NCBI GenBank assembly: GCA_028707455.1 | Contig: JAQWAY010000001.1 | Coordinates: 9,764-73,763 of the forward strand | DNA length: 64,000 nt | From: Bacilli bacterium | GTDB lineage: Bacteria > Bacillota_I > Bacilli_A > RF39 > UBA660 | Direction of reading: 5' to 3' | Shown: piece after piece, positions 8,511-55,767 of the stretch | How the letters are laid out: each line of letters begins with the position of its first letter | How positions within the stretch are numbered: position 1 is the stretch's first letter | The notes under the pieces: generated by a model | What the model was told of the DNA's origin: nothing | Databases searched by the model: none | Seen by the model: the letters and a program-made list of their open reading frames with translations, nothing else | Translations under genes and position numbers: made by a program

Positions 8511-9143
8511 TTATAAATCATCTACTTTTTTATCATAATAATCTTCTGGATTAACTGTTCTTCCATTAATAATTAACTCAAACAATAGATGACTACCTAA
8601 ACTTTTATTTAGATTTGATGTTCCACTTTTGCCAATTACATGGCCTTGTTTAATAGCATCATTTTCTTTAACCGTAACTTCACTTAAACTTTGATATACA
8701 CTAATTACTTCATTACTATGACGAACTTGAATAACATTACCTAAAGTATTATCTTTTTTTACTTGAATGACGGTACCATCTAGAATAGCCACAACATCAA
8801 AGTCTTCTTCTCCACCATAAATGATACCAGAACTTTGTAAATAAGTTCCTTCATGGTAAATAAGAGCATCCTTTTGTGTACTTTCCTCAGCTTTGTAATC
8901 GTAATACTTTTTTAAGACCTTAATCTCTTTATCTATATACGGTTTCACTACTACTTTACTAGTACTAACAACTGGCACATCATCATCAAAAATTGTTTTT
9001 GATACGTAATTATAATCATCCTTATCCTTAAAATCACCTTTAAAAAACATACTTTCGATAAGATAAATCGATGTAAGCAAAATAACAGCAGATATTCCAT
9101 AAATAGTTAAGATGGCTGACTTCTTTAATCTTGTTTTTTTCAT
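8511..9143 (-). CDS. SpoIIQ-like membrane protein with a degenerate M23/LytM domain
   Basis: It has an N-terminal TM segment and a C-terminal LytM fold, but HEGTY replaces HxxxD and SHLLFE replaces HLHxE, so the catalytic residues are lost. Its position, spoIID then M23 then spoIIID then mreB, matches clostridial spoIIQ. Confidence 0.55.
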   Translation of the reverse strand: MKKTRLKKSAILTIYGISAVILLTSIYLIESMFFKGDFKDKDDYNYVSKTIFDDDVPVVSTSKVVVKPYIDKEIKVLKKYYDYKAEESTQKDALIYHEGTYLQSSGIIYGGEEDFDVVAILDGTVIQVKKDNTLGNVIQVRHSNEVISVYQSLSEVTVKENDAIKQGHVIGKSGTSNLNKSLGSHLLFELIINGRTVNPEDYYDKKVDDL

Positions 9144-9196
9144 AATTTCACCTCTATTAAAAGTGTGGACAATTATGAGTTATTTATACAAGATTT

Positions 9197-10108
9197 TTAA
9201 ATTTTTTTAATTTTAGTACCTTGATAATAATGCTTTAATATTTCATCATAACTATAACCCGCTTTAGCCATTCCTAAGGCACCATATTGGCTCATTCCAA
9301 CACCATGACCATATCCTTTAGTAGTTATAGTAACCTTATTATTACTGTTTTTAATAGTAAAATAATTAGACCTTAAACCTAGTTTAGATTGAACAACATT
9401 ACCATCTAGTATAGTTCCATTTATTTTAATTTTTTTAATTCTTCCTGTACTAGTAGTAGTTACATTTTCCACTTTTAAAGCATCACTATAATTTAGATTT
9501 AATTTATTATAAAATTCCTTTAAGCTATAACTACAATAATCAGTATATACAGGAGATACATCACGATCCCATAAAGATGATACACTTCTTAAATATGGTA
9601 ATTTATTATTAAATATTTCCTCACTATTTTCAGTCATACCGGTACTAGTAGAGAAAAAGAAAGCATATACTACCTGACCATTATAATCTAAGTATTCCCC
9701 ATCAGTTTCAATAACTGCTGTTTTTAACTTATTAATATTATCAGTATAATATTTTCCCCAAGCAGTCTTTAAATACTCTAAATCAAAATAAACTTGATTG
9801 GTAACAGTATCAACTAAATCATAATTATTTTTAACATTTTCTTGCATTTTATTCATTGCATAACTACGAGCAGCAACAGCTTGTGCTTTTAATGCTTCTA
9901 AGTCAAAATCAACTGGCATTTCTCCAGCTAATACACCAACAATGTATTGTTCAAAAGGCACTTCTTCTATTGTCCCATTAGTTCTTTTTATTCTAACAAT
10001 CATATTTTCATGATACTCAAATTTTATTTCATCATCACGAATAAAAATATTTACAATTATTGTTGGTATTAGGAAAAAAAGTAAAGAAAAAAGTAGTATT
10101 TTCTTCAT
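9197..10108 (-). CDS. spoIID: Stage II sporulation protein D (SpoIID/LytB lytic transglycosylase family)
   Basis: It has a signal anchor and SpoIID-domain motifs (AQAVAARSYAMNKM, GYGHGVGMSQYGA). Confidence 0.8.
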   Translation of the reverse strand: MKKILLFSLLFFLIPTIIVNIFIRDDEIKFEYHENMIVRIKRTNGTIEEVPFEQYIVGVLAGEMPVDFDLEALKAQAVAARSYAMNKMQENVKNNYDLVDTVTNQVYFDLEYLKTAWGKYYTDNINKLKTAVIETDGEYLDYNGQVVYAFFFSTSTGMTENSEEIFNNKLPYLRSVSSLWDRDVSPVYTDYCSYSLKEFYNKLNLNYSDALKVENVTTTSTGRIKKIKINGTILDGNVVQSKLGLRSNYFTIKNSNNKVTITTKGYGHGVGMSQYGALGMAKAGYSYDEILKHYYQGTKIKKI

Positions 10109-13289: not shown

Positions 13290-13679
13290 TTAAATTATTT
13301 CTTCACAAATATTGTTATATAATATTCTTAATCTTCTTTTATCTTCTGGTTTTAACTTAACAAACCTTAATCGCAGAGGGTAACCACTATCTAGATACAT
13401 CAAAATATCAGCAGAGCCAAGAAAAAACTTAATCGAACATGACGAAATTGAACAATAAGGAATAATTGTAATTTCTTTTATATTACCCGTTCCTTTTTGA
13501 TCAAATAAAATAATCTTTTTATTAGTAAAGACACCATGGTCACGATAAGTCTTATAAATAGCTAATGCTTTTTCCTTATCGGTTATATAATCCTTAATAT
13601 AATCAGGAACATCTTTAAATTCTATTTCTTTAAAAAAATTGAAATATTGAGTTAATTCTTTATACTTTAAAAACGCCAT
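13290..13679 (-). CDS. Hypothetical protein
   Basis: A 129-aa ORF with no recognisable motif. Confidence 0.3.
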   Translation of the reverse strand: MAFLKYKELTQYFNFFKEIEFKDVPDYIKDYITDKEKALAIYKTYRDHGVFTNKKIILFDQKGTGNIKEITIIPYCSISSCSIKFFLGSADILMYLDSGYPLRLRFVKLKPEDKRRLRILYNNICEEII

Positions 13680-13881
13680 AATACACCTCTATTATTAATA
13701 TAATATCATATAAAAAATAATTATAAAATAAAAAGACAAGCAATTTGACATTACTTGTCATTAAAAATTTGACATCCTTATTACATTTTCTATATTCTTT
13801 TATAAATTATTAGATTTTACCACTTTAATTATTGTTTGTGTTTATTGGCGAAAAAGTAATATTTTTGTAAATTATAACAAA

Positions 13882-13901
13882 AAAGAGCAAATGCTCTTTT
13901 A
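13882..13901. terminator. Perfect hairpin AAAAGAGCAaatGCTCTTTT at the 3-prime end of the giant gene
   Basis: A palindrome flanked by A and T runs overlaps the stop codon. Confidence 0.5.
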
Positions 13902-16900
13902 ATTATTGTTATGTATTATATCACTTGAAATTATACTTGTGTTTCCAGATATATCTTTTGCATATATCCATAATTTCCAATTAAGAATTCCATCTCCTAA
14001 AAGTCTTCTTTCAAAAATTGTGTTGTTTTCGAAAGTTGATGCAAGATTCTTCCACGCCCATTCTTTAGGCGTCCAATAAGGATTTTCTGACCAAATATAT
14101 TTCAATTCAGAAATTGCATCTTTATCTTCAACATTAACTAAAATATCAACATCCGAAAATGGTATTGTTATACAACCTAGCCATCCACATTTTTTATTAC
14201 TACCTCTAGTATATATTGGATCATTTATTTTTATAGTAGGAACAGTTGTATCCACTACACTAACAATTGTATTCTTTCCTAATGATCTAATTTCACCTTT
14301 TTCAGTACTTAGTACATATTGATATTCTAATTTATAATCTCCCTTTTGATCTTTATTAAATCTATTAGGAAGAGGATTTATAAAAAATTTTTCATCTTCA
14401 CTAATTGTAACTGTAGCTTGTGGTGCAATAAAGTCTTCCCCAAGTTCATGTTCAAAATTTTCAGGAGCAGTTACTAATGGTCTAATAAATACTAATCTTT
14501 CCTTTGTAGCTGTATTACCTGCACGATCAGTAGCTTTATATGTAATAGTGTATACACCTGCTACCTTATCATTAATACTACCTTCAGTAGTTACTTCAAT
14601 TTCACCATCAGCATTATCAGTAGCTGTAGCCCCATGTTCTACATATGTAGATTTTCCATAATCATATGTATAAGACCCATCTGATACTTTTAGATTAATA
14701 ACAGGTAATGTATTATCAATATTAAATGAATTAGTTCTATAATATATGATATTACCAACTTTATCTTCTATCATAAACCACAGATAATATATTCCGTTTG
14801 GATTTGAAATAACTTCTTTTATATTTTTGGGATATTTAACAAAATTTGTTGAACCATCTGTATTAATAATGATAGTAAATTCACTATCTTCAGGTTGTTC
14901 TGCAGAAGTAGTCCATACGTATTTAATACCTGCATTTGCGTTTAATCCTTCTTTTGCATTTACAGTTATTCTCGGACGACCACCTTGACCCGAATCCATT
15001 ACAGGATCAACTTTACCATTATTTAATACTTTAGTTATTTTTATTACATCCCTATCAATTTTGTCAATTATAATTTCTTTTTTATTGATATTTCCTGCGA
15101 AATCTTTAACCCAAATATTTACTGTTTGATTTTCAGTATAGGTTGCTGTTGTTTTTGTTCCCCATGTAGTTCCACCATCAAATGAATATGGTGATTCTGC
15201 AAGCATTTCACTATTATCCGTTGCATTGATAGTTAATACTACATCTTTATTTGTTAAGTTTTCTGGATTTCCACTTATTGTTACATCTGGTAATGTATTA
15301 TCAATATTAAATGAATCAGTTCTATAATATAGTTCATTACCATACGCATCTTCTATTTTATACCATAAGTAATATATTCCAGTGATAGGCCTCTTAAAGA
15401 AATTTCCTGATGTGTTAGCATTTACCCAGTTATATTCTTTATTCATATTTACTGATTTTACAAATTCTTCATCCATTGGTTGTTCTGCAGAAGTAGTCCA
15501 TACATATGAAGTTTTATATCCCGCTGTATATGTCTTCACACGAAGCCTGATATCATTATCAGCACCTTTTATTGGTAGTGTACTTCCATTACCAGTATTT
15601 CCACCAATTTTTATTATTTCTATTACATTTCGATCAATTTTATCAATTACAATTTCCTTTTTACTGATATTTCCCACATAATCCTTGACCCAAATATTTA
15701 CCGTTTGATTATCAGCGTAGCTTGCTGTTTTTTCTGTTCCCCATGTAGTTCCACCATCAAATGAATATGGTGATTCTGAAAGCATTCCGCTATTATCTGT
15801 TGCATTGATAGTTAATACTACATCTTTATTTGTTAAATTAGTAGGATTTCCAATTACATTAACCACTGGCGCTTCATTATCTAAATAAAACTCATATTCA
15901 GTTTCATTGCCAGCTTTATCTCTTAATATTAAGGTATTATTACCAGCTTTTCCAAAATATTTATTTGTAGAAACAGCATTGATATCTCCCCAGCTATTAC
16001 TAGATTTATCTAATAATGTACCATTCAAGTCAGCCTCTTTCAAGTTTTCATCAAATAGTTTAAATGATATATTACTGAAATATGGTTCATTACCTATTGA
16101 TTCCTTTTTAACTGTTATAGTTGGTTTTATACTATCAAATATAATATAATCTCTATTTGATACAGTTGTATATTCTTTTCCTTCATTACCAGCAATATCT
16201 TTATATCCACTAACTTTAAATGGTATATTTTCATTTTGTTTTAAATTGCTAGCAACATCTTCAGTTATAGTTAAATAATATGCATAATAAACATTACCAC
16301 TAGTATCCTTTGATACAGTGTACTCTTTAATGGTGACACCAGCTATTGTAACAACCGGGAATGTAGATAATTGTTCAGTATAACTTAGTTTCAAGTATAG
16401 TCTTGTTCCAATAGTTGCGTAATGATCAGTTGCATTGATTCTAAAAATTCTTTGATTTGCATTAGGAGCTGTTTTATCAATTGTGAAAGTTACTGTTGTA
16501 CTATGATTTGCTTTATCTGTTACAGTTATTGTATGTGATCCTTCTTCTGAAACAACTCCTGTTCTAGGGGTTTTTTCATCATAAGTGACACCATCAATAA
16601 TTATATTTCTTACATTTTTTTCAATGATTTCATACTCAATATCAACATTGTATAAACCATTATTTTCTACCCCGTTAATAACTGGAGCAACTTTATCTAT
16701 TCTTTTAACTTCAAAGTTAATAGTATTTGGATTACCTATTAAATCTTTTATATCAACTGAATATTTACCATTTTCAGCAAATACCCTTGTAAATGTTTTA
16801 CTATTTACTCTATTCCATCCTTCAATATCTTGGATTTCTTCATTTGCCGTTAAAGTTACAATTACGTCATTAGGTGTTACAGCATTACCATTATTATTTG

Positions 16901-18992
16901 AGAATGTTTTTTCAGCCAGTGGAGCTGTTTTATCCACTATAAAATTATATGTGTTTAAATTTCCAGCAGCATCACTAAAATCAATGCTTATATCCTTTGT
17001 TCTATAGTAATAATTGTAATATGTATTATTACCCAATGATCTCCATTCACTCTTACTTTTTGTAAAACCTGTAACATCTTCACTAAATTGAATAGTTACC
17101 TTAATTCTACCCTTTTCTTTAGCTTCGTATGTTTGATTAAAATCAATAACTTCAGGACGTTCATTATCAAATACAAATGGTCCAGCATTACTTACTATTC
17201 CGTTATTAGCGTTATCTTGAGCGTACACCCATAAATAATAAGTTCCATTTAAATTAGATGGTGCCACTGCTATTAATGGATCTTCTTCGTTATTTTCTAA
17301 ATGAGTTTGAATACTTATAGACTCAATACCTTCAGAAGCTTCTAACCATTGATATCTTAATTGTTTGATACCACTTAAATCACTTGCACTTAAAGTTACA
17401 TTATGATTTTGGCTTGATTCACCACTTGTACTTCCAAAATTAATTGTTGCTTTTGTCTTATCAATATTAGTTATTTCATATGTTACTTCATCTGAAATAT
17501 TTCCAGCAACATCTTTTACTCTTACGGTTACTGCTTGATTCTTTTTAAATGTTGCAAAATTTTCAGTTTGCCATTCGCCACTATTAAATTGGTATCCTGC
17601 AATACCACCGTGATCTTCAGCATTAACTGTTAAAATTATATCTTTATTAATTGGATTTTCATTGTTTGAAGTTATAGTTATATTTTTGGGTGCTTCATTA
17701 TCTAAATTAAATCCTTTTGTTCTTACTACTTCTTGATTCCCAGCCTTATCAGTAGCGACTACAACTAAATAATAAGTTCCTGTTTCTCCTTTAGGAGTAT
17801 ATAAATCTTTTGTATTTTCAAAGGTCGCAAATGATGAATCATTTATGTCAATATTTTGATTTTTTGTCCATACATATTTAAGTGAATCTGTATTGAAACC
17901 ACTTAAATCATCAGTAACAGTTGCTGCTCTTGCATGAGCTTTACGATAGTGATTTGAATAATTAACATAATTTAATTTAATTATTGGTGCTAATTTATCA
18001 ATATTATCGATAGAACCTTCTGATAAAGCAACAGTTTTTACTATATCATGATTAAAACTAACACATGCTACATAGTTACCATTTTCAGTAGCTACATATG
18101 AATATTCATCAGTTATTTCTTTAGCAACCATTTCTAGAAGACTAAAAATACTCATTGGTTTAGTATCTTCATCTTCTACTTCACAAGTGTTTCCTTGCTT
18201 AAATTCAATATTTTGAATTAAGTCTTTATCATAATTTGAAACATTTAATTTTAATGTAATATCTTTATTAGTCCATTCTGTAGTGCTTGGATCTAATGTT
18301 AAGATTGCATTATTAATTGCTTCTATTTCTTCTTCTAATTTTGTAATATCATTAAGTAAGTTTTGAATTGAATTTACTGATGTTAATTTATTACTAACAT
18401 TAGCTTTATTAAGTTCATCTTCATTACCAATTATTCCTTGTAATTGATTTAATAAATCTTTTAAATTATTATTAAGATTTTCATCCTCTGAATAATTACC
18501 TAAAAGTTTATTACTATTAGTAATTGCATTACTTAACTTTGTATTAATCTTCTTGTCAATACTGTTGATTAGATTAGAAATTGTAGTAGTTTGTGTATTA
18601 ACATTTGCTTGAGTAGTATTTCTAGTATTTAATAAAGTTTTAGCTTTCTTAATTTCTAGTTCAAGCGAATTTAGTAAACTTACTAATTCTTCATCTTCTG
18701 TTTCTATTTTTTCATAGCTGTCGGTGCTATTTACGGCTGTTTGTAAAGTTCCATAGTTGGTAACTACGTTTTGTTGTACTGGTACAACATTTTTTTCTTC
18801 TTCTGTTTTTTTAGTTTCTTCTTGAGGTGCTTTTTCATCATCTTTTTCCTTTTCACCATTGTTATTGTCTTTTTCATGGCTATCTGGATCTTTGACTTCA
18901 TTTAAATCTTCGTTTGGATTAGCAAACGTAAATACAAACAATCCAATTAATACGAACAACACAATAGCGAAAATTCTTTTCCTGTTTATCAT
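13899..18992 (-). CDS. Giant surface protein of 1697 aa: N-terminal signal anchor, coiled-coil region, and more than 10 cadherin-like/Ig-like beta-sandwich repeats
   Basis: An N-terminal hydrophobic anchor (IFAIVLFVLIGLFVFTF) is followed by a K/E/N-rich coiled-coil segment. Repeated modules then carry YYLxVxAxDxAGN and FN(I/L)DN(E/T)(A/L)P junction motifs reminiscent of cadherin DxNDN linkers. There is no LPXTG motif. RBS: GGAGGAAAATTAT then ATG. Confidence 0.6.
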   Translation of the reverse strand: MINRKRIFAIVLFVLIGLFVFTFANPNEDLNEVKDPDSHEKDNNNGEKEKDDEKAPQEETKKTEEEKNVVPVQQNVVTNYGTLQTAVNSTDSYEKIETEDEELVSLLNSLELEIKKAKTLLNTRNTTQANVNTQTTTISNLINSIDKKINTKLSNAITNSNKLLGNYSEDENLNNNLKDLLNQLQGIIGNEDELNKANVSNKLTSVNSIQNLLNDITKLEEEIEAINNAILTLDPSTTEWTNKDITLKLNVSNYDKDLIQNIEFKQGNTCEVEDEDTKPMSIFSLLEMVAKEITDEYSYVATENGNYVACVSFNHDIVKTVALSEGSIDNIDKLAPIIKLNYVNYSNHYRKAHARAATVTDDLSGFNTDSLKYVWTKNQNIDINDSSFATFENTKDLYTPKGETGTYYLVVVATDKAGNQEVVRTKGFNLDNEAPKNITITSNNENPINKDIILTVNAEDHGGIAGYQFNSGEWQTENFATFKKNQAVTVRVKDVAGNISDEVTYEITNIDKTKATINFGSTSGESSQNHNVTLSASDLSGIKQLRYQWLEASEGIESISIQTHLENNEEDPLIAVAPSNLNGTYYLWVYAQDNANNGIVSNAGPFVFDNERPEVIDFNQTYEAKEKGRIKVTIQFSEDVTGFTKSKSEWRSLGNNTYYNYYYRTKDISIDFSDAAGNLNTYNFIVDKTAPLAEKTFSNNNGNAVTPNDVIVTLTANEEIQDIEGWNRVNSKTFTRVFAENGKYSVDIKDLIGNPNTINFEVKRIDKVAPVINGVENNGLYNVDIEYEIIEKNVRNIIIDGVTYDEKTPRTGVVSEEGSHTITVTDKANHSTTVTFTIDKTAPNANQRIFRINATDHYATIGTRLYLKLSYTEQLSTFPVVTIAGVTIKEYTVSKDTSGNVYYAYYLTITEDVASNLKQNENIPFKVSGYKDIAGNEGKEYTTVSNRDYIIFDSIKPTITVKKESIGNEPYFSNISFKLFDENLKEADLNGTLLDKSSNSWGDINAVSTNKYFGKAGNNTLILRDKAGNETEYEFYLDNEAPVVNVIGNPTNLTNKDVVLTINATDNSGMLSESPYSFDGGTTWGTEKTASYADNQTVNIWVKDYVGNISKKEIVIDKIDRNVIEIIKIGGNTGNGSTLPIKGADNDIRLRVKTYTAGYKTSYVWTTSAEQPMDEEFVKSVNMNKEYNWVNANTSGNFFKRPITGIYYLWYKIEDAYGNELYYRTDSFNIDNTLPDVTISGNPENLTNKDVVLTINATDNSEMLAESPYSFDGGTTWGTKTTATYTENQTVNIWVKDFAGNINKKEIIIDKIDRDVIKITKVLNNGKVDPVMDSGQGGRPRITVNAKEGLNANAGIKYVWTTSAEQPEDSEFTIIINTDGSTNFVKYPKNIKEVISNPNGIYYLWFMIEDKVGNIIYYRTNSFNIDNTLPVINLKVSDGSYTYDYGKSTYVEHGATATDNADGEIEVTTEGSINDKVAGVYTITYKATDRAGNTATKERLVFIRPLVTAPENFEHELGEDFIAPQATVTISEDEKFFINPLPNRFNKDQKGDYKLEYQYVLSTEKGEIRSLGKNTIVSVVDTTVPTIKINDPIYTRGSNKKCGWLGCITIPFSDVDILVNVEDKDAISELKYIWSENPYWTPKEWAWKNLASTFENNTIFERRLLGDGILNWKLWIYAKDISGNTSIISSDIIHNNN
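14700..15880. repeat. Tandem near-identical duplication (2 x ~590 bp) inside the giant surface-protein gene
   Basis: DNA at about 14703-15290 is highly similar to about 15289-15880. For example, ggtaatgtattatcaatattaaatgaat at 14703 matches the run at 15289, and a long near-identical run ...ccccatgtagttccaccatcaaatgaatatggtgattctg... occurs in both copies. The protein copies are NLTNKDVVLTINATDNS...YSFDGGTTWGT...NIWVKD. Confidence 0.8.
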
Positions 18993-19022
18993 ATAATTTT
19001 CCTCCCCTAAAAATATATATAA

Positions 19023-19044
19023 AAGTTACAATTAAAATTGTAAC
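19023..19044. promoter_or_regulatory. Perfect 10-bp-arm inverted repeat AGTTACAATTaaAATTGTAACT in the leader of the giant surface-protein gene (candidate operator)
   Basis: It lies about 30 bp upstream of the start codon at 18992, between the likely promoter and the RBS. Confidence 0.45.
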
Positions 19045-19184
19045 TGCACTACCATTATATTTATTTTAAATATAAATTTTCTTAATCTGTTGACATTTAC
19101 TTGATAAAAAAGGCTTATGCATTTAGATAATAACATAAACCCTACTTCAATTCAACTTTTTTAAAGATATATATTTTAAATTCA

Positions 19185-19210
19185 ATCGACACAATTCGAC
19201 ACGATTCGAC
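19185..19210. repeat. Three tandem copies of (A)TTCGACAC immediately downstream of lepB
   Basis: The sequence atcgacacaattcgacacgattcgac shows a direct repeat with an ~10-bp period. Confidence 0.5.
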
Positions 19211-19738
19211 TTACTTAACAAAAGATATTTTTGTTAGTGGCCAGATTTTTAAAAACGGCTTTCCGATGATGTCTTTTCGCTTAATCAAACCAAAAGTTCT
19301 ACTGTCTAAAGAATTATTTCTATTGTCCCCTAAAACTAAATACATATTCTCAGGAATCGTATTATAACCTATTTCTTCAAGAGAAAAATCTTCAGTCATT
19401 AATCCATCAACTATCTTTTCTTCATAAGCTTTATCATTTATATATAAAATGTTATCTTTATATGTTATTGTCTCTCCTGGTAGTCCTATTACCCTTTTTA
19501 CTAAATACTTTGTATCGCCATAATCAAACGCAATAACTTCGTTACGTTCTGGTTCTCTAAATGTATATATAAACTTATTTAAGATTATAATATCACCATT
19601 ATTTAATGTTGGTTGCATAGAAGGTCCTACTACTTGTTGTAATGAAACGACATAAACTACAACAAATATAATACCTATTGCTACTAATATATATTTTATA
19701 ACGTCTTTGAAAAATTCTTTTATTTCTCTTAAATCCAT
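19211..19738 (-). CDS. lepB: Signal peptidase I (S26 family)
   Basis: It has an N-terminal TM segment, the catalytic Ser box GPSMQPTL, and a later Lys box. Confidence 0.85.
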   Translation of the reverse strand: MDLREIKEFFKDVIKYILVAIGIIFVVVYVVSLQQVVGPSMQPTLNNGDIIILNKFIYTFREPERNEVIAFDYGDTKYLVKRVIGLPGETITYKDNILYINDKAYEEKIVDGLMTEDFSLEEIGYNTIPENMYLVLGDNRNNSLDSRTFGLIKRKDIIGKPFLKIWPLTKISFVK

Positions 19739-23433: not shown

Positions 23434-24687
23434 TTATATTTCTTCTAATTTAATTTTAGCACCAACAGTACTTAATTTTTCAATTATATTTTCATATCCA
23501 CGTAAAATATGTTCTACTTCCTCAACAATTGTTTCTCCTTCAGCTACTAATCCCGCTAGTATTAGACAAGCACCTGCTCTTAAATCAGTTGCTTTTACAG
23601 TAGTACCAACTAATTTAGATGGTCCTACAATAATTATTGATTGATTATCAATTGTTATATCAGCGCCCATTTTATTTAAATATTCAACATTTTGAAATCT
23701 ATTTTCATAAATTGTCTCTTCTAAATGACAAGTACCATTAGCAAGAGTTAATAAAGTGGTCATTGGTTGTTGTAAATCGGTTGCAAATCCTGGGAAAACT
23801 TGAGTTTTGATATTGACTGGGATTAAATTGTCAGTTGCTGAAATAATTAAATAGTCATCATAAACTTCTAATTTCACACCCATTTCCTTTAATTTAATTA
23901 AAAGGGCTTCGATATGTTCTGGTATGATATTCTCTATTTTTAAATTATTTCCCACTAATGCACCCGCAATAACATAAGTTCCAGCTTCAATTCGGTCAGG
24001 AATAACTTCCATATAGCAACTACCTAATTTATCAACGCCTATGATTCTAATTTCACTAGTACCTGCACCCGTTATTTTAGCACCCATTTGATTTAAGAAA
24101 GTTGCTACATTAACTATTTCTGGTTCTTTTGCTGCATTTTCAATAATAGTTAAACCATTTGCTTTAACCGCTGCTAACATAATATTGATTGTAGCTCCTA
24201 CACTAGCCATATCCAAGTAGATATGACTGCCTTTTAATTCTTCAGCAATAATTGTATATTTATTGCCATCTTCAATAACTTTAGCACCTAAAGCTTCAAA
24301 TCCTTTTAAATGTAAATTAATTGGTCTAGCTCCAATTGAACAACCTCCTGGAAAATACATTTCCACTTTTTTATATTTTCCTAACAAAGCACCCATAAAA
24401 TAATATGAGGCCCTTAATTTCTTTGATATGTGTTCGGGAATACTTTTATTCTCGACTTCACTAGAATCAATTTCCATTATTTCTCCATTACGCTTTACTT
24501 TAGCACCTAAGAACGTTAGGATTTCATTTAAAGCATCAATATCAGATATATTAGGAACATTATCTAATTTAACTAATTCATCAGATAATAATGAAGCAGG
24601 TACTAGGGCAACAGCACTATTCTTTGCTCCACTTATTCTAATTGTTCCTTCTAGAAAATTTCCACCTGTAATTTTTATTCGTTTCAT
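23434..24687 (-). CDS. murA: UDP-N-acetylglucosamine 1-carboxyvinyltransferase
   Basis: It has EPSP-synthase-fold motifs (ISGAKNSAV and the catalytic Cys in GGCSIGARPI). The start was chosen at the ATG at 24685-24687, which has a GGAGGT RBS; the upstream ATG of the ORF track lies inside that RBS. Confidence 0.85.
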   Translation of the reverse strand: MKRIKITGGNFLEGTIRISGAKNSAVALVPASLLSDELVKLDNVPNISDIDALNEILTFLGAKVKRNGEIMEIDSSEVENKSIPEHISKKLRASYYFMGALLGKYKKVEMYFPGGCSIGARPINLHLKGFEALGAKVIEDGNKYTIIAEELKGSHIYLDMASVGATINIMLAAVKANGLTIIENAAKEPEIVNVATFLNQMGAKITGAGTSEIRIIGVDKLGSCYMEVIPDRIEAGTYVIAGALVGNNLKIENIIPEHIEALLIKLKEMGVKLEVYDDYLIISATDNLIPVNIKTQVFPGFATDLQQPMTTLLTLANGTCHLEETIYENRFQNVEYLNKMGADITIDNQSIIIVGPSKLVGTTVKATDLRAGACLILAGLVAEGETIVEEVEHILRGYENIIEKLSTVGAKIKLEEI

Positions 24688-24707
24688 ATATACCTCCATT
24701 TGATATA

Positions 24708-44716: not shown

Positions 44717-45635
44717 TTTCTTTACTCCTTTTTATATACATATTTTGGAATATTGTAAAACTACTATTTACTATCCAATATAATGCAATACCTGATGGAA
44801 TACTAAATGAAATCATAAGGATGAATGCTAACATGAATTTCATCATAAATTTCATTTGACTTTCTTGTTCCTTACTCATAGTAGCTCCACTATTTAACTT
44901 AAATGAAAAATATGTTGTTATAAATACTAATACAATTATAATTATATATTGAAATTGATTAGTTTTAAAAGCTGAAGCTGGACTTGTACCTAATTGAAAA
45001 GATAAAAATTCTTCTTCGAAAAGTACTGGTAAACGATTCATGGCTTCAAAGAAAGCAAAGAATAGTGGAATTTGAATTAATGAAAATAAACAACCTGACA
45101 TTGGGCTTATATTATATTTTTTATAAATCAATAACATTTCTTGACCCTTTTGCATAGAACTTTCTTGATCCTTACGATCTTTATATTTCTTTTCTAAATT
45201 ATCAAGTTCTGGTTTAGCCTTTTTCATATTTTCTGATTGAACAGCTGTTTTCTTTGTAACTGGGATTAAAACCGATCTTATCAATATAGTAATAATTATA
45301 ATTGATATACCATAATTATTAAATAATTTGGTTAGATTAACTAATACCCAGACTAGTGGTTTAACAAAAATAGTTGTCCATACACCTTCATACTTTCCGG
45401 TACTAAGGTTGAATTCATCACACTTTTGTAACTTACTGATATCAATTTTATTTTCTTTATATATTTTAATTATATTTTGATCCTCTGGTTGACACAATAT
45501 ATTAGCTGTTAAATTTTGTCCCGTTTCAGGGTTAACAACTGGTTTTTTGTCTTTAGTTTGAAGTGTTTTAGTACATCCACTTACAGAAAATACCATTACC
45601 ATCAATACTATAACTAATAACATCTTCTTTTTCAT
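44703..45635 (-). CDS. yidC: Membrane protein insertase YidC/OxaA (SpoIIIJ-type lipoprotein)
   Basis: It has a lipobox VFSVSGC and the five-TM YidC core. Confidence 0.85.
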   Translation of the reverse strand: MKKKMLLVIVLMVMVFSVSGCTKTLQTKDKKPVVNPETGQNLTANILCQPEDQNIIKIYKENKIDISKLQKCDEFNLSTGKYEGVWTTIFVKPLVWVLVNLTKLFNNYGISIIIITILIRSVLIPVTKKTAVQSENMKKAKPELDNLEKKYKDRKDQESSMQKGQEMLLIYKKYNISPMSGCLFSLIQIPLFFAFFEAMNRLPVLFEEEFLSFQLGTSPASAFKTNQFQYIIIIVLVFITTYFSFKLNSGATMSKEQESQMKFMMKFMLAFILMISFSIPSGIALYWIVNSSFTIFQNMYIKRSKENESA

Positions 45636-45973
45636 TAAACGTTCTCCTTTAATACTTTTATCTTGGTAAGAATTTCAAATAATTCTTTTTTCATATCGGC
45701 AAATGTTTTATTTAAAATATCTTTCTTTACTATTATAATACAATTAAAACCTTTTTGGTAGTTTTTTTGATCAATAATATTTTTTAATTGCCTTTTTATT
45801 TTATTTCTAACAACTGCATTACCAATTCTAGTACCTACTGAAATACCAAAGCGATATATTTCTTCATCGTGATGTTCTAAATAAATAATATAACTCTTAA
45901 ATTTATATGGTTTATAGTTTTTAATTATTCTTTGAAACTCACGATTTTCTCTTAGAATATTTATCTTTTTCAT
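45635..45973 (-). CDS. rnpA: Ribonuclease P protein component
   Basis: It is 112 aa and basic. It lies downstream of rpmH. Confidence 0.85.
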   Translation of the reverse strand: MKKINILRENREFQRIIKNYKPYKFKSYIIYLEHHDEEIYRFGISVGTRIGNAVVRNKIKRQLKNIIDQKNYQKGFNCIIIVKKDILNKTFADMKKELFEILTKIKVLKENV

Positions 45974-45998
45974 ATTTCACCTCTTAATAGTAAAAAAC

Positions 45999-46018
45999 CA
46001 CTGAAAAAACAGTGGTAG
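45999..46018 (-). terminator. Hairpin between rpmH and rnpA (attenuator/terminator)
   Basis: ACCACTG-aaaaaa-CAGTGGT is followed by a T run in minus-strand orientation. Confidence 0.5.
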
Positions 46019-46021
46019 TTG

Positions 46022-46144
46022 TTAATGGGATAATACTTTACGTCCTTTTTTTCTTCTTCTTTTTATAATTGATGTTTTCATACGAGCAAAGAATCCCATT
46101 TTTTTACTTCTTTTTCTTGTATTTGGTTGAAAAGTTCTTTTCAT
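46022..46144 (-). CDS. rpmH: 50S ribosomal protein L34
   Basis: Hand translation of the minus strand gives [40 protein letters not shown] followed by a stop. It is too short for the ORF track. Confidence 0.9.
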
Positions 46145-46255
46145 ACGTATACACCTCCTGAAATTTAATTTTTTGTGTGTTGCTAATTCATTATATATAT
46201 AAAAGCGGCTTTTGTCAAACTTTTTTTTCTTTATTTATAATACAAATATATAGTT

Positions 46256-46448
46256 TAGTGGAAAAAAATACTCACAAATATGTTTTCCACAGTATTTTGT
46301 TTTTTTATTTATATATATTTAATATCTTTTAACTAGTTTTCCACAAATGTGTGGAAAAGTTATGAACTTTTATATGTTAATAACTTTTTTTCCACTTTGT
46401 ATGTGGAAAAGTGTCTTTTATGAATGTTTTTAATAACTTTTTTCCACA
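46256..46448. promoter_or_regulatory. oriC, the DnaA-box cluster upstream of dnaA
   Basis: At least seven TTTTCCACA, TTTTCCACT or inverse TGTGGAAAA boxes lie at 46256, 46284, 46337, 46349, 46387, 46402 and 46440, in both orientations. An AT-rich tract sits at 46300-46326. Confidence 0.75.
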
Positions 46449-46515
46449 TTTTAATTGTTATTTATGAAAAAATAAGGTAAAATGTTAATTAGATGGTGAA
46501 TTGAGGTGGTTTGGT

Positions 46516-47868
46516 ATGAAAATAGAAGTTATTTGGGATTCTTTTTTAAATAAAATTAAAGAAGAGTTAAAACAACCATTACTATATGATGCTTGGTTTG
46601 CTGAAACTAAATTAATCGAATTAAAAGATGATTATGCTAAAATATTAGTTCCAATGCCTATCCATAAAAAACATTTAAAAAGTAATTACAATGATTTAAT
46701 TGAAAAAACATTTAATGAAATTACTGGTTCTAATTTTAAAATTGAGTATATTACAGAAGAAGAGTTAGAACAAAATATTGTTATTGATACTGATAATATG
46801 GGGGTCCCTGCTGATGTATTTGTATCTAATCTAGATCCTAAACATACATTTGATAATTTTATAGTTGGGGAAAGTAATAAATTTGCTAAATATAATGCTC
46901 TTGCTGTAGCAGAAAAACCAGGACAGATTTATAATCCTTTATTTATATATGGGTCAAGTGGTCTTGGGAAAACCCATTTAATGCACGCAATTGGAAATTA
47001 TATTGTGGAAAATAGTAATAAAAAGGTATTATATACGACAAGTGATTACTTTGTTAATGATTTTGTTGAACTATATAAACATAAAAGCAGTAAGAATAAC
47101 TTTGATATTGTTGATAAATTTAAAGAAAAGTATAGAAGTTTAGATGTTCTAATTATAGATGATATTCAATACTTAGAAATTGCACCTACATCACAACAAG
47201 AATTCTTTAATACATTCAATGATTTACATAATAATAAAAAGCAAATTATTATTGCTTCAGATCGTTCACCAGATGATTTAAGAAAATTGGAAGATAATCT
47301 TCGTACAAGATTCAATTGGGGACTTACAGTTAATATTTTTCCACCGGATTTTGAATTAAGAATGAATATTATCGATACTAAAATTAAATCGTATGAAATG
47401 ATGTTTGATTTTCCACAGGATGTTAAAGAATATATTGCTAGTAATTGTACTAGTGATATAAGGAAACTTGAAGGTGCTATTAATCGTGTATATGCTTACG
47501 CAACTATAATGAATGGTTCTAATATAACTTTAGAATTAGCTATTGAAGCTTTAAAAGATTATTTTGTAAAAAGTATTATATCAAAAAATAAAATTGAACA
47601 AGTACAGCAATTGGTTGCTAATCGATATAATATTACTGTGGAAGATTTAAAAAGTAAAAGGAGAAGTGCAAACATTGGAGTTCCGCGACAAATTGCTATG
47701 TATATATGTCGCATATACCTAGAAGAACCTTTTGCTAGAATCGGTAGTGATTTTGGTGGTAAGGATCATACAACAGTAATGCACTCTGTTGATAAAATAA
47801 CTAAAGAATTACAAAAGGATCCACAGTTAGCTACAGAAATAGAAAATATTGTTAACAACATGAAATAG
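46516..47868 (+). CDS. dnaA: Chromosomal replication initiator DnaA
   Basis: It has AAA+ Walker A GSSGLGKTHL and a C-terminal DnaA-box-binding HTH. The start was set to the ATG at 46516 (MKIEVIW), which has a GAGGTGG RBS. Confidence 0.9.
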   Translation: MKIEVIWDSFLNKIKEELKQPLLYDAWFAETKLIELKDDYAKILVPMPIHKKHLKSNYNDLIEKTFNEITGSNFKIEYITEEELEQNIVIDTDNMGVPADVFVSNLDPKHTFDNFIVGESNKFAKYNALAVAEKPGQIYNPLFIYGSSGLGKTHLMHAIGNYIVENSNKKVLYTTSDYFVNDFVELYKHKSSKNNFDIVDKFKEKYRSLDVLIIDDIQYLEIAPTSQQEFFNTFNDLHNNKKQIIIASDRSPDDLRKLEDNLRTRFNWGLTVNIFPPDFELRMNIIDTKIKSYEMMFDFPQDVKEYIASNCTSDIRKLEGAINRVYAYATIMNGSNITLELAIEALKDYFVKSIISKNKIEQVQQLVANRYNITVEDLKSKRRSANIGVPRQIAMYICRIYLEEPFARIGSDFGGKDHTTVMHSVDKITKELQKDPQLATEIENIVNNMK

Positions 47869-47946
47869 TGGAAAACAATTGTCGTAAATTAATTATATTT
47901 GTATGGTTTAATTACCAAAAAAGAATTTTCCACCATTTCCACCACA
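47867..47946. promoter_or_regulatory. Second DnaA-box cluster, between dnaA and dnaN, with a following AT-rich tract that is a candidate DUE
   Basis: AGTGGAAAA lies at 47867, and TTTTCCACC and TTTCCACCA at 47926-47946. A nearly pure A/T stretch runs 47950-48010. Confidence 0.55.
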
Positions 47947-55633: not shown

Positions 55634-55680
55634 ATAATAAAAAATTTGATTTATAATTAGAAATAGTGTATCTTATATAA

Positions 55681-55753
55681 GACACAACATTTATGTTCGA
55701 ATCAGGTCAGAATCGGAAGATAGCAGCCTTAAGGACCTCTAAATGTGTGTGTC
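55681..55753 (+). ncRNA. ffs: Small (4.5S-type, minimal) SRP RNA
   Basis: It contains the SRP domain IV signature CAGGUCAG...AAUCGGAAGAUAGCAGCC...UUAAGG, which compares to E. coli GGUCAGGUCCGGAAGGAAGCAGCCAAGG. The terminal helix GACACAACAUUU/AAAUGUGUGUGUC is followed by CCUUUUUU. Its position next to tadA and dnaX matches Bacillus scr. Confidence 0.6.
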
Positions 55754-55767
55754 CTTTTTTATTGTAG

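What the first reader, a model, noticed from the sequence alone, without database searches (positions are those of the whole stretch)
13899..19044. 1697-aa cadherin-like repeat surface protein with a very recent internal 590-bp tandem duplication and a perfect palindromic operator in its leader
This is the largest gene in the window. It has a signal anchor, a coiled-coil stalk, and then more than 10 beta-sandwich modules whose junctions carry FN(I/L)DN(E/T)xP motifs resembling the Ca-binding DxNDN linkers of cadherin repeats. Two adjacent modules (about 190 aa each) are nearly identical at the DNA level. This indicates ongoing repeat expansion or contraction, a hallmark of surface adhesins under selection. 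A 22-bp perfect inverted repeat (AGTTACAATTaaAATTGTAACT) sits between promoter and RBS, suggesting dedicated repression. There is no LPXTG motif or C-terminal anchor, so retention is via the N-terminal TM only.
Basis: partly seen in the sequence, partly recalled or inferred. Interest (0 to 1): 0.55.

Follow-up and report, generated by a model that had tools for sequence, protein, structure and literature searches.

The report
Giant Ig-repeat surface protein gene
This is an ordinary but large secreted or surface protein made of about 16 immunoglobulin-like modules, from an uncultured low-GC gut-type bacterium; its internal duplication is old rather than recent, and the 'operator' in front of it looks more like a small transcription-terminator hairpin.

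Summary
The gene is real: window 13899-18992, minus strand, 1697 aa, identical to a 'DUF5011 domain-containing protein' of a Bacilli MAG. It has one N-terminal hydrophobic segment, a disordered acidic stretch, about 140 aa of helices and about 16 beta-sandwich modules. It has no LPXTG and no second hydrophobic segment.

It is not a cadherin. No cadherin model or DxNDN/LDRE motif matches. Only one module passes a Pfam cut-off (Bact_surface_Ig-like). A confident AlphaFold model of the duplicated unit is closest to the BIg domains of the Salmonella adhesin SiiE.

The '590-bp very recent' duplication is overstated. The copies are 67% identical in DNA (57% in protein), 83% over the best 282 nt, with a longest shared run of 44 nt.

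The 22-bp palindrome exists (19024-19045). It is followed directly by a T-run and lies 34 nt before the ATG. At least 12 related genes carry a c-di-GMP-I riboswitch whose perfect-palindrome terminator sits in that same position. The window and its sister species have no aptamer. Their hairpins keep the stem but differ in loop length by 2 nt. I read it as a terminator-like leader hairpin, not an operator.

The family shares a near-invariant signal ending TFA|NP, sits beside a signal peptidase I and bPH gene pair, and ranges from 575 to 2365 aa.

The parts
13899..18992 (-). Coding sequence of the 1697-aa Ig-like repeat protein (stop codon 13899-13901)
   Evidence: ORF list. The same protein is in NCBI MAG GCA_028684055.1, named 'DUF5011 domain-containing protein'.
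18921..18992 (-). Signal peptide or signal anchor, aa 1-24 (MINRKRIFAIVLFVLIGLFVFTFA), ending in the family-invariant TFA|NP
   Evidence: It is the only hydrophobic segment and AlphaFold places a helix at aa 2-23. Mean pairwise identity is 61% over 27 family members, against 29% for the mature parts. Position -1 is Ala in 27/27, position +1 is Asn in 26/27 and position +2 is Pro in 26/27.
18723..18920 (-). Acidic, lysine- and asparagine-rich segment predicted disordered, aa 25-90
   Evidence: Composition. AlphaFold gives no secondary structure and pLDDT below 50.
18309..18722 (-). Helical region, aa 91-228 (four predicted helices); coiled coil not shown
   Evidence: Helices at aa 91-122, 128-161, 171-188 and 196-228 in a low-confidence model. 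Weak FIVAR hit at E 0.005, below the cut-off.
13902..18287 (-). About 16 beta-sandwich (bacterial Ig-like) modules, aa 236-1697, of several types: A (M03, M10, M12), B with a Y-x-W...YYLW signature (M02, M04, M11, M13, M16), and others
   Evidence: Module table and all-against-all scores. Sub-threshold Big_12, Big_13, Big_7, DUF4625 and PKD hits. Model of one A-B pair.
15318..15896 (-). Duplicated A-B unit, copy 1 (aa 1033-1225)
   Evidence: Direct repeat families D1 and D2. Codon alignment.
14733..15317 (-). Duplicated A-B unit, copy 2 (aa 1226-1420)
   Evidence: Compared with copy 1: 57% aa and 67% nt identity, dS 0.44 (A module) and 0.96 (B module). AlphaFold model pLDDT 86.
14463..14717 (-). 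Module M14 (aa 1426-1510), the only module above a Pfam cut-off: Bact_surface_Ig-like (formerly DUF5011)
   Evidence: 48.5 bits against a cut-off of 27. NCBIfam OmpL47-type domain, 41.6 bits against 40.
19001..19007 (-). Ribosome-binding site GGGGAGG, 8 nt before the ATG
   Evidence: Sequence. Conserved in sister locus L008.
19009..19023 (-). T-rich tract (TTTTATATATATTTT) directly after the hairpin
   Evidence: Sequence. Identical in L008.
19024..19045 (-). 22-bp perfect palindrome AGTTACAATT-TT-AATTGTAACT. As RNA it forms a 9-bp stem with a 4-nt loop at -7.5 kcal/mol. I read it as a terminator-like leader hairpin.
   Evidence: Position and shape match the riboswitch terminators of related genes. 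L008 keeps the 8-bp stem with a different loop.
19127..19155 (-). Best promoter candidate: TTGAAT, 17 nt, TATTAT with an upstream TG
   Evidence: Consensus scan. Both hexamers, the spacing and the TG are conserved in L008. Function not shown.
19104..19143 (-). Hairpin plus T6 overlapping the promoter; probable terminator of the signal peptidase gene
   Evidence: -11.2 kcal/mol. The arms differ from L008 but stay complementary: GGGTTTATG/CATAAGCC against GGTTTTGTGTT/AACACAAAACC.
19184..19210 (-). Three GTCGA(A/T)T boxes at 10-bp spacing (resembling the Spo0A box TGTCGAA), function unknown
   Evidence: Sequence. Conserved in L008. TGTCGAA occurs at 0.74 per kb upstream of family genes against 0.04 per kb elsewhere in those loci.
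13881..13900 (-). Terminator-like hairpin at the 3' end of the gene
   Evidence: Terminator scan. -10.5 kcal/mol.
19211..19738 (-). Upstream neighbour: signal peptidase I (175 aa) with the catalytic Ser (GPSM) and Lys (KRVIG) motifs intact
   Evidence: Peptidase_S26, 150 bits. TIGR02227, 157 bits. Alignment.
13290..13679 (-). Downstream neighbour: bacterial PH-domain protein (bPH_1, 129 aa)
   Evidence: PF08000, 49.7 bits. The same neighbour is present in related loci.

Best explanation
The gene encodes a large Sec-exported protein that probably forms an extended rod on or near the cell surface.

From the N-terminus it has:
- a 24-aa signal sequence ending in a signal-peptidase-I-type site (TFA|NP);
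- about 65 aa of acidic disordered linker;
- about 140 aa of helices;
- about 16 bacterial immunoglobulin-like beta-sandwich modules joined by (I/L/V)D(N/K)xxP junctions.

It belongs to an uncharacterised family found in uncultured low-GC Bacilli MAGs, mostly from gut or rumen. Three features define the family:
- the near-invariant N-terminal signal;
- a location beside the signal peptidase I and bPH gene pair;
- free gain and loss of Ig-like modules.

The A-B/A-B duplication in this copy is one such event. It is old, possibly with later gene conversion of the A modules.

The likely role is adhesion or cell-surface structure. This is inferred from the architecture and from the c-di-GMP-I riboswitch that precedes many family members.

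In this genome the riboswitch aptamer is absent. What remains between the promoter and the ribosome-binding site is a short AT-rich hairpin followed by a U-run. It most likely acts on the RNA as a weak intrinsic terminator or attenuator, or at least as a 5' stem-loop, and not as a repressor binding site.

Shown: the ORF, domain folds, repeat divergence, family signature, synteny, the riboswitches in relatives and the hairpin anatomy.
Inferred: signal cleavage, surface location, adhesive role, Ca2+ binding and termination activity.
For: Architecture:
- One hydrophobic N-terminal segment and no LPXTG.
- Only Ig-like families are hit. One passes its cut-off and the rest are sub-threshold.
- The A-B unit model has pLDDT 86 and shows two beta-sandwiches.
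- The best solved folds are SiiE BIg50-52 (E 4e-4, probability 1.0), then PKD, intimin and Hoc.

Family:
- 27 loci carry a giant ORF with the signal KK.IFAIVLF..LGL..FTFA|NP. The signal is 61% identical across them, against 29% for the mature parts.
- The order signal peptidase I, giant gene, bPH recurs with unrelated outer flanks.
- Sizes run from 575 to 2365 aa.
- Sister locus L008 is colinear for aa 1-611 (62% identity) and then lacks most of the modules found here.
- L003 and L056 carry 92-97%-identical internal duplications, so module turnover is ongoing in the family.

Regulation:
- Rfam c-di-GMP-I matches of 60-70 bits lie in the leaders of L002, L011, L014, L036, L041, L044, L046 and L050.
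- A profile of those leaders also finds L032, L034, L048, L049, L012 and L013.
- Those leaders end in perfect palindromes such as GCATTTATAC(n3-5)GTATAAATGC plus T6-8, placed 28-37 nt before the ATG. The window hairpin ends 34 nt before the ATG.
- Its folding energy (-7.5 kcal/mol) lies within the range of the window's gene-end hairpins, -6.2 to -16.5.
- 7 of about 10 perfect palindromes in the window are at gene 3' ends.
- Between the window and L008, the block from hairpin to ATG is 52/57 identical. The differences are confined to the centre of the palindrome (TTTTAA against TAAT).
- No regulator gene lies within six genes on either side.
Against: - No experiment or transcript data exist, so the promoter and transcription start are predictions.
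- The hairpin is weak, with only 2 G-C pairs, and its U-tract is interrupted. The terminator scan with standard criteria did not call it.
- No alternative antiterminator pairing was found.
- Homology of this leader to the riboswitch leaders is not statistically supported. The covariance model gives 10.2 bits (E 2.8) for the window and 13.5 bits (E 0.45) for L008, and nhmmer finds neither. The link is therefore positional only.
- A perfect 10+10 palindrome is also what a dimeric repressor site looks like.
- Only two sequences carry this hairpin, and the stem shows no compensatory change.
- Signal peptidase I directly abuts bPH in about 27 related loci with no giant gene between them. The peptidase is therefore probably the housekeeping enzyme, and the linkage may be plain synteny.
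- A strongly conserved hydrophobic segment could equally mean an uncleaved membrane anchor.
- The adhesive function is inferred only.
Confidence: 0.68

Rival explanations
1. The palindrome is a DNA operator. A dimeric repressor binds AGTTACAA/TTGTAACT between the promoter and the ribosome-binding site and switches the adhesin gene off.
For: - The dyad symmetry is perfect and the exact palindrome occurs once in the window.
- It lies downstream of every promoter candidate.
- Both half-sites are conserved in the sister species.
- The stem is weak for a terminator.
Against: - The half-site spacing changes from 6 to 4 nt between the two species. That rotates the half-sites by about 70 degrees, which is harmless for a loop but usually not for a dimer.
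- A T-run starts at the first base after the stem.
- Related genes have bona fide riboswitch terminators of the same shape at the same distance from the ATG.
- No transcription factor gene is nearby.
- The three extra copies of the half-site in the window are in coding sequence. Two lie inside this gene and read V-T-I or I-V-T (and my reading of the frame).
- Most other perfect palindromes in this window are gene-end hairpins.
Confidence: 0.17
2. The hairpin is a decayed riboswitch. The ancestor of this gene carried the c-di-GMP-I riboswitch seen in relatives. The aptamer eroded in the window/L008 lineage, and only the expression-platform terminator and part of the 3' aptamer strand (ATGGTAGT) survive, now acting as a constitutive attenuator.
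For: - A riboswitch is present in at least 12 family leaders that span the family.
- The terminator lies at the same distance from the ATG.
- Local resemblance: ATGGTAGT-GCAGTTACAA in the window against ATGGTAGTCAGCTGCATTTATAC in L046 and others.
Against: - Neither the covariance model nor nhmmer gives a significant match, and Rfam finds nothing at E up to 10.
- In AT-rich sequence an 8-nt resemblance is weak evidence.
- Other family leaders (L003, L004, L006, L022 and others) have neither the aptamer nor this hairpin, so the ancestral state is unknown.
Confidence: 0.2
3. The protein stays in the membrane through an uncleaved N-terminal signal anchor. The linker and helices act as a stalk through the wall and the Ig rod projects outward.
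For: - It is the only hydrophobic segment, and no other anchoring domain exists.
- The hydrophobic core is unusually conserved for a disposable signal peptide.
- A disordered linker followed by helices is what a wall-spanning stalk would look like.
- Related small-genome gut Bacilli are reported to have reduced wall synthesis (PMC7301438).
Against: - T at -3, A at -1 and no Pro at +1 fit the signal peptidase I rule. These positions, plus N-P at +1/+2, are the most invariant of all.
- An active signal peptidase I gene is adjacent.
- The 15-18 residue hydrophobic core with a central Gly is typical of cleaved Gram-positive signals (general knowledge; no predictor was available here).
Confidence: 0.35

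Closest known systems
SiiE of Salmonella enterica (giant non-fimbrial adhesin with 53 BIg domains; PDB 2yn3/2yn5; PMC5466336)
   Same: - It is a long tandem array of bacterial Ig-like beta-sandwiches.
- It gives the best structural match to the modelled A-B unit.
- Conserved Asp residues occur at the module junctions and in the modules (LDN..P, TNKD, ATD, KD.AGN). This recalls SiiE, where conserved Asp/Glu bind Ca2+ and stiffen the rod (PMC5466336).
   Different: - SiiE is a Gram-negative type 1 secretion substrate with a C-terminal signal. This protein has an N-terminal Sec signal.
- Sequence identity is only 15-18% and TM-scores are 0.43-0.49.
- Ca2+ binding was not tested here.
- The modules here are heterogeneous (at least five types), whereas SiiE has 53 similar repeats.
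c-di-GMP-riboswitch-controlled surface adhesins of Clostridioides difficile (CD2831, CD3246; PMC6447587, PMC6366702)
   Same: - They are Gram-positive surface proteins whose leaders carry c-di-GMP riboswitches ending in terminators.
- At least 12 relatives of this gene have a c-di-GMP-I riboswitch in the same place.
   Different: - The C. difficile proteins are sortase-anchored collagen-binding-type proteins under class II riboswitches.
- This family has no sortase signal and uses class I.
- The window gene itself has no aptamer.
Bact_surface_Ig-like / DUF5011 (PF16403) and related Big_x Pfam families
   Same: Module M14 is a member (48.5 bits against a cut-off of 27). Other modules give sub-threshold Big_12, Big_13, Big_7, Big_3_2, DUF4625 and PKD hits.
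   Different: Fifteen of the 16 modules are too diverged for any Pfam model. The B-type module (Y-x-W ... G-x-YYLW-x-x-x-D) has no curated family.
Classical and bacterial cadherin-like repeats
   Same: - Both are tandem Greek-key beta-sandwiches with an Asp/Asn-rich junction followed by Pro.
- A Ca2+-stiffened rod is a reasonable guess for how it works.
   Different: - No cadherin HMM matches. The best is Cadherin_5 at E 0.29 (11.4 bits against a cut-off of 26.5), on the module that is DUF5011.
- There is no DxNDN, LDRE or DxD pattern at the junctions.
- No cadherin appears among the top 50 structural matches.
Operons with a dedicated signal peptidase next to its substrate, such as tapA-sipW-tasA of Bacillus subtilis (recalled from memory)
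   Same: A signal peptidase gene lies next to a major exported protein whose signal is unusually conserved.
   Different: - The enzyme here is an ordinary bacterial-type signal peptidase I (TIGR02227, 157 bits; SipW model only 18 bits).
- It has its own terminator.
- It directly abuts bPH in about 27 related genomes that have no giant gene between them. It is therefore probably the housekeeping enzyme.

Membership tests
Cadherin / cadherin-like repeat | Match to a cadherin-type profile (PF00028, Cadherin_5 and similar) above its cut-off | tested here: not met
   The whole protein and all 16 modules were scanned. The only hit is Cadherin_5 at E 0.29, 11.4 bits against a cut-off of 26.5, on M14, where Bact_surface_Ig-like scores 48.5 bits.
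Cadherin / cadherin-like repeat | Ca2+-binding linker motifs DxNDN, LDRE and DxD at the repeat junctions | tested here: not met
   Regular-expression search finds no DxND[NG] and no LDRE. The junctions read [ILVF]D[NKST]x.P.
Cadherin / cadherin-like repeat | Structural neighbours are cadherin domains | tested here: not met
   In the Foldseek search of the PDB, the top matches are SiiE BIg, MDGA1 Ig, CBM, PKD, intimin and Hoc. No cadherin is in the top 50.
Bacterial Ig-like domain proteins (BIg; Bact_surface_Ig-like/DUF5011, Big_x) | At least one domain above a curated profile cut-off | tested here: met
   PF16403 at aa 1448-1502 scores 41.8 bits for the whole protein and 48.5 bits for the module alone, against a cut-off of 27.
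Bacterial Ig-like domain proteins (BIg; Bact_surface_Ig-like/DUF5011, Big_x) | The remaining modules adopt an Ig-like beta-sandwich fold | tested here: met
   Met for the one A-B pair modelled: pLDDT 86, all-beta, SiiE BIg best match at probability 1.0. The other modules rest only on sub-threshold Big/PKD hits and on internal similarity to A or B.
SiiE-type Ca2+-binding giant adhesin | Ca2+ sites formed by conserved Asp/Glu at and within BIg domains | not testable with these tools
   Conserved Asp positions exist, but no coordinates or ion modelling were available.
SiiE-type Ca2+-binding giant adhesin | Type 1 secretion (C-terminal signal, adjacent ABC/MFP/OMP genes) | tested here: not met
   The protein has an N-terminal Sec-type signal. 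The neighbours are signal peptidase I, bPH, alanine racemase and asparagine synthase.
Sortase-anchored (LPXTG) surface adhesin | C-terminal LPXTG-like motif followed by a hydrophobic segment and a positively charged tail | tested here: not met
   No [LIS]Px[TSA][GAN] motif is present. The highest 19-aa hydropathy outside the N-terminus is 1.25.
c-di-GMP-I riboswitch (RF01051) controlled gene | Aptamer match in the 5' leader | tested here: not met
   The window has no Rfam hit at gathering score or at E up to 10. A covariance model built from the family's riboswitch leaders gives 10.2 bits, E 2.8. The feature is met in at least 12 related loci at 60-70 bits.
Intrinsic (Rho-independent) terminator or attenuator | Stable stem-loop immediately followed by a U-run, on the transcribed strand | tested here: inconclusive
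   The stem has 9 bp and -7.5 kcal/mol, followed by UUUU then AU repeats then UUUUU. It falls within the range of this window's gene-end hairpins but fails the standard criterion of at least 3 G-C pairs. Activity was not measured.
Signal peptidase I substrate (cleavable Sec signal peptide) | n-h-c regions with small residues at -3 and -1 and no Pro at +1 | tested here: inconclusive
   The sequence fits: MINRKR, a hydrophobic core, then T-F-A|N-P, near-invariant in 27 relatives. No signal-peptide predictor and no experiment were available.
Palindromic repressor operator | Dyad symmetry with fixed half-site spacing conserved across orthologues, and a cognate regulator | tested here: not met
   The half-sites are conserved but their spacing is 6 nt in the window and 4 nt in L008. 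No regulator lies within six genes on either side. Binding itself is not testable here.

The most novel reading that the evidence does not exclude
The giant Ig-repeat proteins with the invariant KK..LF..LGL..FTFA|NP signal may form an undescribed, lineage-specific surface system of uncultured small-genome gut Bacilli. In this reading the system is functionally tied to the adjacent signal peptidase I and bPH genes and is normally switched on by c-di-GMP through a class I riboswitch. The window lineage would then be a natural case in which the aptamer was lost, the terminator hairpin was kept as a constitutive attenuator, and control passed to another input, possibly the phased TGTCGAA (Spo0A-box-like) sites upstream of the promoter.
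Probability: 0.15. Interest if true: 0.5.

Novelty: new member of a known kind. Interest (0 to 1): 0.33.

Why it matters
On its own the gene is an ordinary representative of a very common class: large repetitive Ig-like surface or secreted proteins of Firmicutes.

The comparison is still useful in three ways:
- It defines an uncharacterised family in uncultured gut and rumen Bacilli. The family has a recognisable N-terminal signature, a preferred chromosomal neighbourhood and frequent c-di-GMP riboswitch control. This gives a first handle on how these organisms, known only from metagenomes, might attach to surfaces or hosts.
- It shows that a 'perfect palindrome between promoter and RBS' in an AT-rich genome should first be read as an RNA hairpin.
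- It corrects a claim of ongoing repeat expansion that would otherwise invite a fruitless search for copy-number variation at this locus.

Tried and rejected
1. Tandem Repeats Finder on the gene found only an 18-nt micro-repeat, because its longest period is 500. The 579/585-nt repeat came from the seed-extension tool instead.
2. BLASTP of the protein against itself listed no off-diagonal hits. I replaced it with module-by-module Smith-Waterman comparison.
3. A PDB sequence search found no solved relative at E up to 0.1.
4. The AlphaFold model of the N-terminal 335 aa had pLDDT 40. I used it for secondary structure only and ran no fold search on it.
5. I tested whether the window leader is a diverged c-di-GMP riboswitch by Rfam at E up to 10, by a covariance model built from 11 family leaders, and by nhmmer with --max. 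No result was significant. Homology is therefore not claimed.
6. A scan of JGI metagenome contigs for close relatives of the protein, meant to look for copy-number variants of the repeat, found none.
7. A scan of the same collection for the hairpin pattern gave one unrelated marine contig, a chance match.
8. I first read signal peptidase, giant gene and bPH as a dedicated three-gene cassette. The census weakened this: the peptidase directly abuts bPH in about 27 loci, and the giant gene can also lie upstream of the peptidase or about 4 kb downstream of bPH.
9. The half-site AGTTACAATT occurs 5 times against 0.69 expected. Two of these are the palindrome itself and two lie in this gene's coding sequence (V-T-I and I-V-T codons), so I did not take it as a regulon signal.
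10. Record titles of related MAGs (Muribaculaceae, Ignavibacteriales; NCBI places Ca. Scybalousia in Bacteroidales) were not usable for taxonomy.
11. I considered an assembly artefact for the repeat and rejected it, because the copies differ at one base in three.


Full report
**What is there.**
- The finding sits on the minus strand. One intact ORF runs from 18992 to 13899 and encodes 1697 aa. It is the largest ORF in the window.
- A strong ribosome-binding site, GGGGAGG, lies 8 nt before the ATG. A terminator-like hairpin overlaps the stop codon.
- The same protein is deposited for a metagenome-assembled 'Bacilli bacterium' (GCA_028684055.1) as 'DUF5011 domain-containing protein'.
- The window has about 27% G+C. 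It includes the replication origin region, with a GC-skew switch near 46 kb and a dnaA-like ORF.
- The neighbours are housekeeping genes. Upstream are signal peptidase I and asparagine synthase. Downstream are a bacterial PH-domain protein, alanine racemase, an ATP-grasp enzyme, RpiB, SpoIID and an M23 peptidase. None is a transcription factor.

**Protein anatomy.**
- The only hydrophobic segment is at aa 1-24. There is no LPXTG-like motif.
- Next comes an acidic, Lys/Asn-rich stretch (aa 25-90) with no predicted structure. After it are four predicted helices between aa 91 and 228.
- The N-terminal model is poor (pLDDT 40), so a coiled coil cannot be affirmed. There is only a weak, sub-threshold FIVAR hit.
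- From aa 236 onward I delimit about 16 modules of 70-117 aa. Ten junctions read [ILVF]D[NKST]x.P.
- All-against-all comparison sorts the modules into:
  - an A type (M03, M10, M12);
  - a B type with a Y-x-W ... G-x-YYLW signature (M02, M04, M11, M13, M16);
  - several singletons.

**Is it cadherin-like?**
- Pfam gives one hit above its cut-off: Bact_surface_Ig-like (the former DUF5011) on M14. Other modules give only sub-threshold hits to Big_12, Big_13, Big_7, Big_3_2, DUF4625 and PKD families.
- The only cadherin-type hit is Cadherin_5 at E 0.29, on the module that is clearly DUF5011.
- There is no DxNDN or LDRE motif and no solved sequence relative.
- I built an alignment of 29 A-B, A and B units from the window and its database homologues. 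AlphaFold then gave a confident model of aa 1226-1430: mean pLDDT 86, two beta-sandwiches.
- Foldseek against the PDB ranks the BIg50-52 domains of the Salmonella giant adhesin SiiE first (E 4e-4, probability 1.0, TM 0.43-0.49). PKD, intimin and phage Hoc Ig-like domains follow. No cadherin is in the top 50.
- The modules are therefore bacterial Ig-like domains.
- SiiE's BIg domains bind Ca2+ through conserved Asp/Glu, and this stiffens the rod (PMC5466336). Membership in the cadherin family is not supported.

**The duplication.**
- The repeat is real, with spacing of 579/585 nt, but it is not recent.
- In a codon alignment the two A-B units are 57% identical in protein and 67% in DNA.
- The A modules are about 80-90% identical in DNA (dS 0.44). 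The B modules are about 50% identical (dS 0.96). The longest identical run is 44 nt.
- The unequal dS suggests an old duplication with later gene conversion, or stronger constraint, on the A modules. This is inference.
- An assembly artefact is excluded by the divergence itself.
  - relatives range from 575 to 2365 aa;
  - the sister species (L008, whose bPH is 81% identical) has an 878-aa protein that is colinear with aa 1-611 here (62% identity) and then lacks most of the modules found here;
  - two relatives carry internal duplications that are 92-97% identical in DNA.

**The family and its neighbourhood.**
- Database homologues share an almost identical N-terminus.
- I scanned one genome per GTDB species with an alignment of the neighbouring bPH protein. 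This returned 80 loci, nearly all MAGs labelled Bacilli, 'Tenericutes' or Clostridium sp., many from gut or rumen samples by their isolate names.
- Twenty-seven loci contain a giant ORF beginning KK.IFAIVLF..LGL..FTFA|NP.
- Over 22 residues the signal is 61% identical on average, against 29% for the best local alignment of the mature parts. Ala at -1 (27/27), Thr at -3 (25/27), Asn at +1 and Pro at +2 (26/27 each) are near-invariant.
- This fits a signal peptidase I site. The adjacent peptidase has its catalytic Ser and Lys motifs and is an ordinary bacterial-type enzyme.
- In about 25 loci the order is peptidase, giant gene, bPH, with unrelated outer flanks.
- In about 27 loci the peptidase directly abuts bPH. 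In a few loci the giant gene lies upstream of the peptidase or about 4 kb downstream of bPH.
- The peptidase-bPH pair is therefore the conserved backbone, and the giant gene is a frequent but movable lodger. I do not claim a dedicated processing system.
- PF08000 proteins are ring-forming PH-like domains of unknown function (PMC2817789).

**The palindrome.**
- It lies at 19024-19045 and has 10-nt arms around a 2-nt centre. As RNA it forms a 9-bp stem with a 4-nt loop at -7.5 kcal/mol. TTTTATATATATTTTT follows at once, and then the ribosome-binding site.
- Such elements are common here. The window holds about 10 distinct perfect palindromes of this size, against about 3 expected. Seven of them sit at gene 3' ends, with energies from -6.2 to -16.5 kcal/mol.
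- The decisive context comes from relatives:
  - the orthologue in the complete 1.49-Mb genome OW818670.1 has a c-di-GMP-I riboswitch in its leader (65 bits);
  - Rfam confirms riboswitches in seven more family leaders (60-70 bits);
  - a profile of these leaders finds further ones.
- These leaders end in a perfect palindromic terminator, typically GCATTTATAC-AAA-TTGTATAAATGC plus T7. It lies 28-37 nt before the ATG, and the window hairpin ends 34 nt before it.
- In L011 and L014 the terminator's 5' arm includes the aptamer's conserved 3' strand. This suggests that c-di-GMP binding prevents termination, an ON switch. That would suit an adhesin and parallels C. difficile surface proteins (PMC6447587, PMC6366702). 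This is inference.
- The window has no aptamer:
  - Rfam finds nothing even at E up to 10;
  - a covariance model of the family leaders gives 10.2 bits, E 2.8;
  - nhmmer finds nothing.
- So I claim positional equivalence, not homology.
- The sister locus L008 has the same arrangement. From the hairpin to the ATG, 52 of 57 columns are identical, and all differences fall in the centre of the palindrome: AGTTACAA-TTTTAA-TTGTAACT against AGTTACAA-TAAT-TTGTAACT.
- A 2-nt change in half-site spacing is neutral for a loop. It is awkward for a dimeric DNA-binding protein.
- Together with the T-run and the lack of a nearby regulator, this favours an RNA hairpin over an operator. The hairpin could be a weak terminator or attenuator, or a 5' stem-loop.
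- The case is not closed. The stem is weak, the standard terminator scan does not call it, no antiterminator was found, and only two sequences carry it.

**Rest of the leader.**
- The promoter candidate TTGAAT-17-TATTAT, with an upstream TG (19155-19127), is conserved in L008.
- A second hairpin plus T6 (19143-19104) overlaps this promoter. Its arms differ between the two species but stay complementary. This fits a terminator for the peptidase gene.
- Directly after the peptidase stop codon lie three GTCGA(A/T)T boxes at 10-bp spacing, also conserved in L008. They resemble the Spo0A box TGTCGAA.
- That heptamer is about 18-fold denser upstream of family genes than elsewhere in the same loci: 6 in 8.1 kb against 17 in 419 kb. 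It is not enriched in the window overall.
- I record this as an unexplained lead.

**Verdict.**
- The object is a new, uncharacterised member of a well-known kind: an exported protein made of tandem Ig-like repeats.
- The cadherin label, the 'very recent' duplication and the 'operator' should be dropped or softened.
- The more interesting results lie outside the original claim: the family signature, and the riboswitch control in relatives contrasted with a bare hairpin here.

Noticed in passing
window 19184-19210 (minus strand): Three GTCGA(A/T)T boxes at exact 10-bp spacing lie right after the signal peptidase stop codon, about 30 nt upstream of the conserved -35 hexamer. They resemble the Spo0A box TGTCGAA and are conserved in sister locus L008. 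TGTCGAA is about 18-fold denser in the 300 nt upstream of the 27 family genes than in the rest of those loci.
   Followed up: partly
window 19104-19143 (minus strand) and L008 about 360-400: A hairpin plus T6 overlaps the conserved promoter. Its arms differ between the two species but remain complementary, so it is probably the terminator of the signal peptidase gene.
   Followed up: partly
window about 45600-47900: The GC skew changes sign near 46 kb and gene orientation flips there, next to a dnaA-like ORF (46501-47868). The window therefore spans the chromosomal replication origin. An SRP RNA lies at 55676-55761.
   Followed up: no
window 8511-10108 (minus strand): A SpoIID-domain protein and an M23 peptidase lie side by side, with a MurA-like enzyme at 23434-24699. 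These hint at sporulation-type and wall-remodelling genes in an organism from a small-genome lineage.
   Followed up: no
L039 7283-9940, L047 7628-9943, L049 4950-7097: In some related genomes, large ORFs with a type IV prepilin-like N-terminus (MKERGFTLIELLAV...) lie close upstream of bPH. In L039 and L047 they sit directly in front of it, where other genomes have the Ig-repeat gene.
   Followed up: no
L040 9231-9333, L059 2709-2822, L062 3148-3260, L074 9226-9337 (minus strand relative to bPH): Further c-di-GMP-I riboswitch leaders of the same type point away from the bPH gene. The riboswitch-controlled gene there is apparently inverted relative to the usual arrangement.
   Followed up: no
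L003 5495-6758; L056 4329-5879: Family members carry truly recent internal duplications: 234-nt and 300-nt units at 94-97% identity in L003, and a 300-nt unit at 92% in L056. The window copies are 83% identical at best.
   Followed up: partly
L009, L010, L012, L013 and others (record titles): Many related low-GC contigs with Bacilli-type gene content are deposited as 'Muribaculaceae' or 'Ignavibacteriales' MAGs, and NCBI places Candidatus Scybalousia in Bacteroidales. These labels look wrong for the contigs concerned.
   Followed up: no
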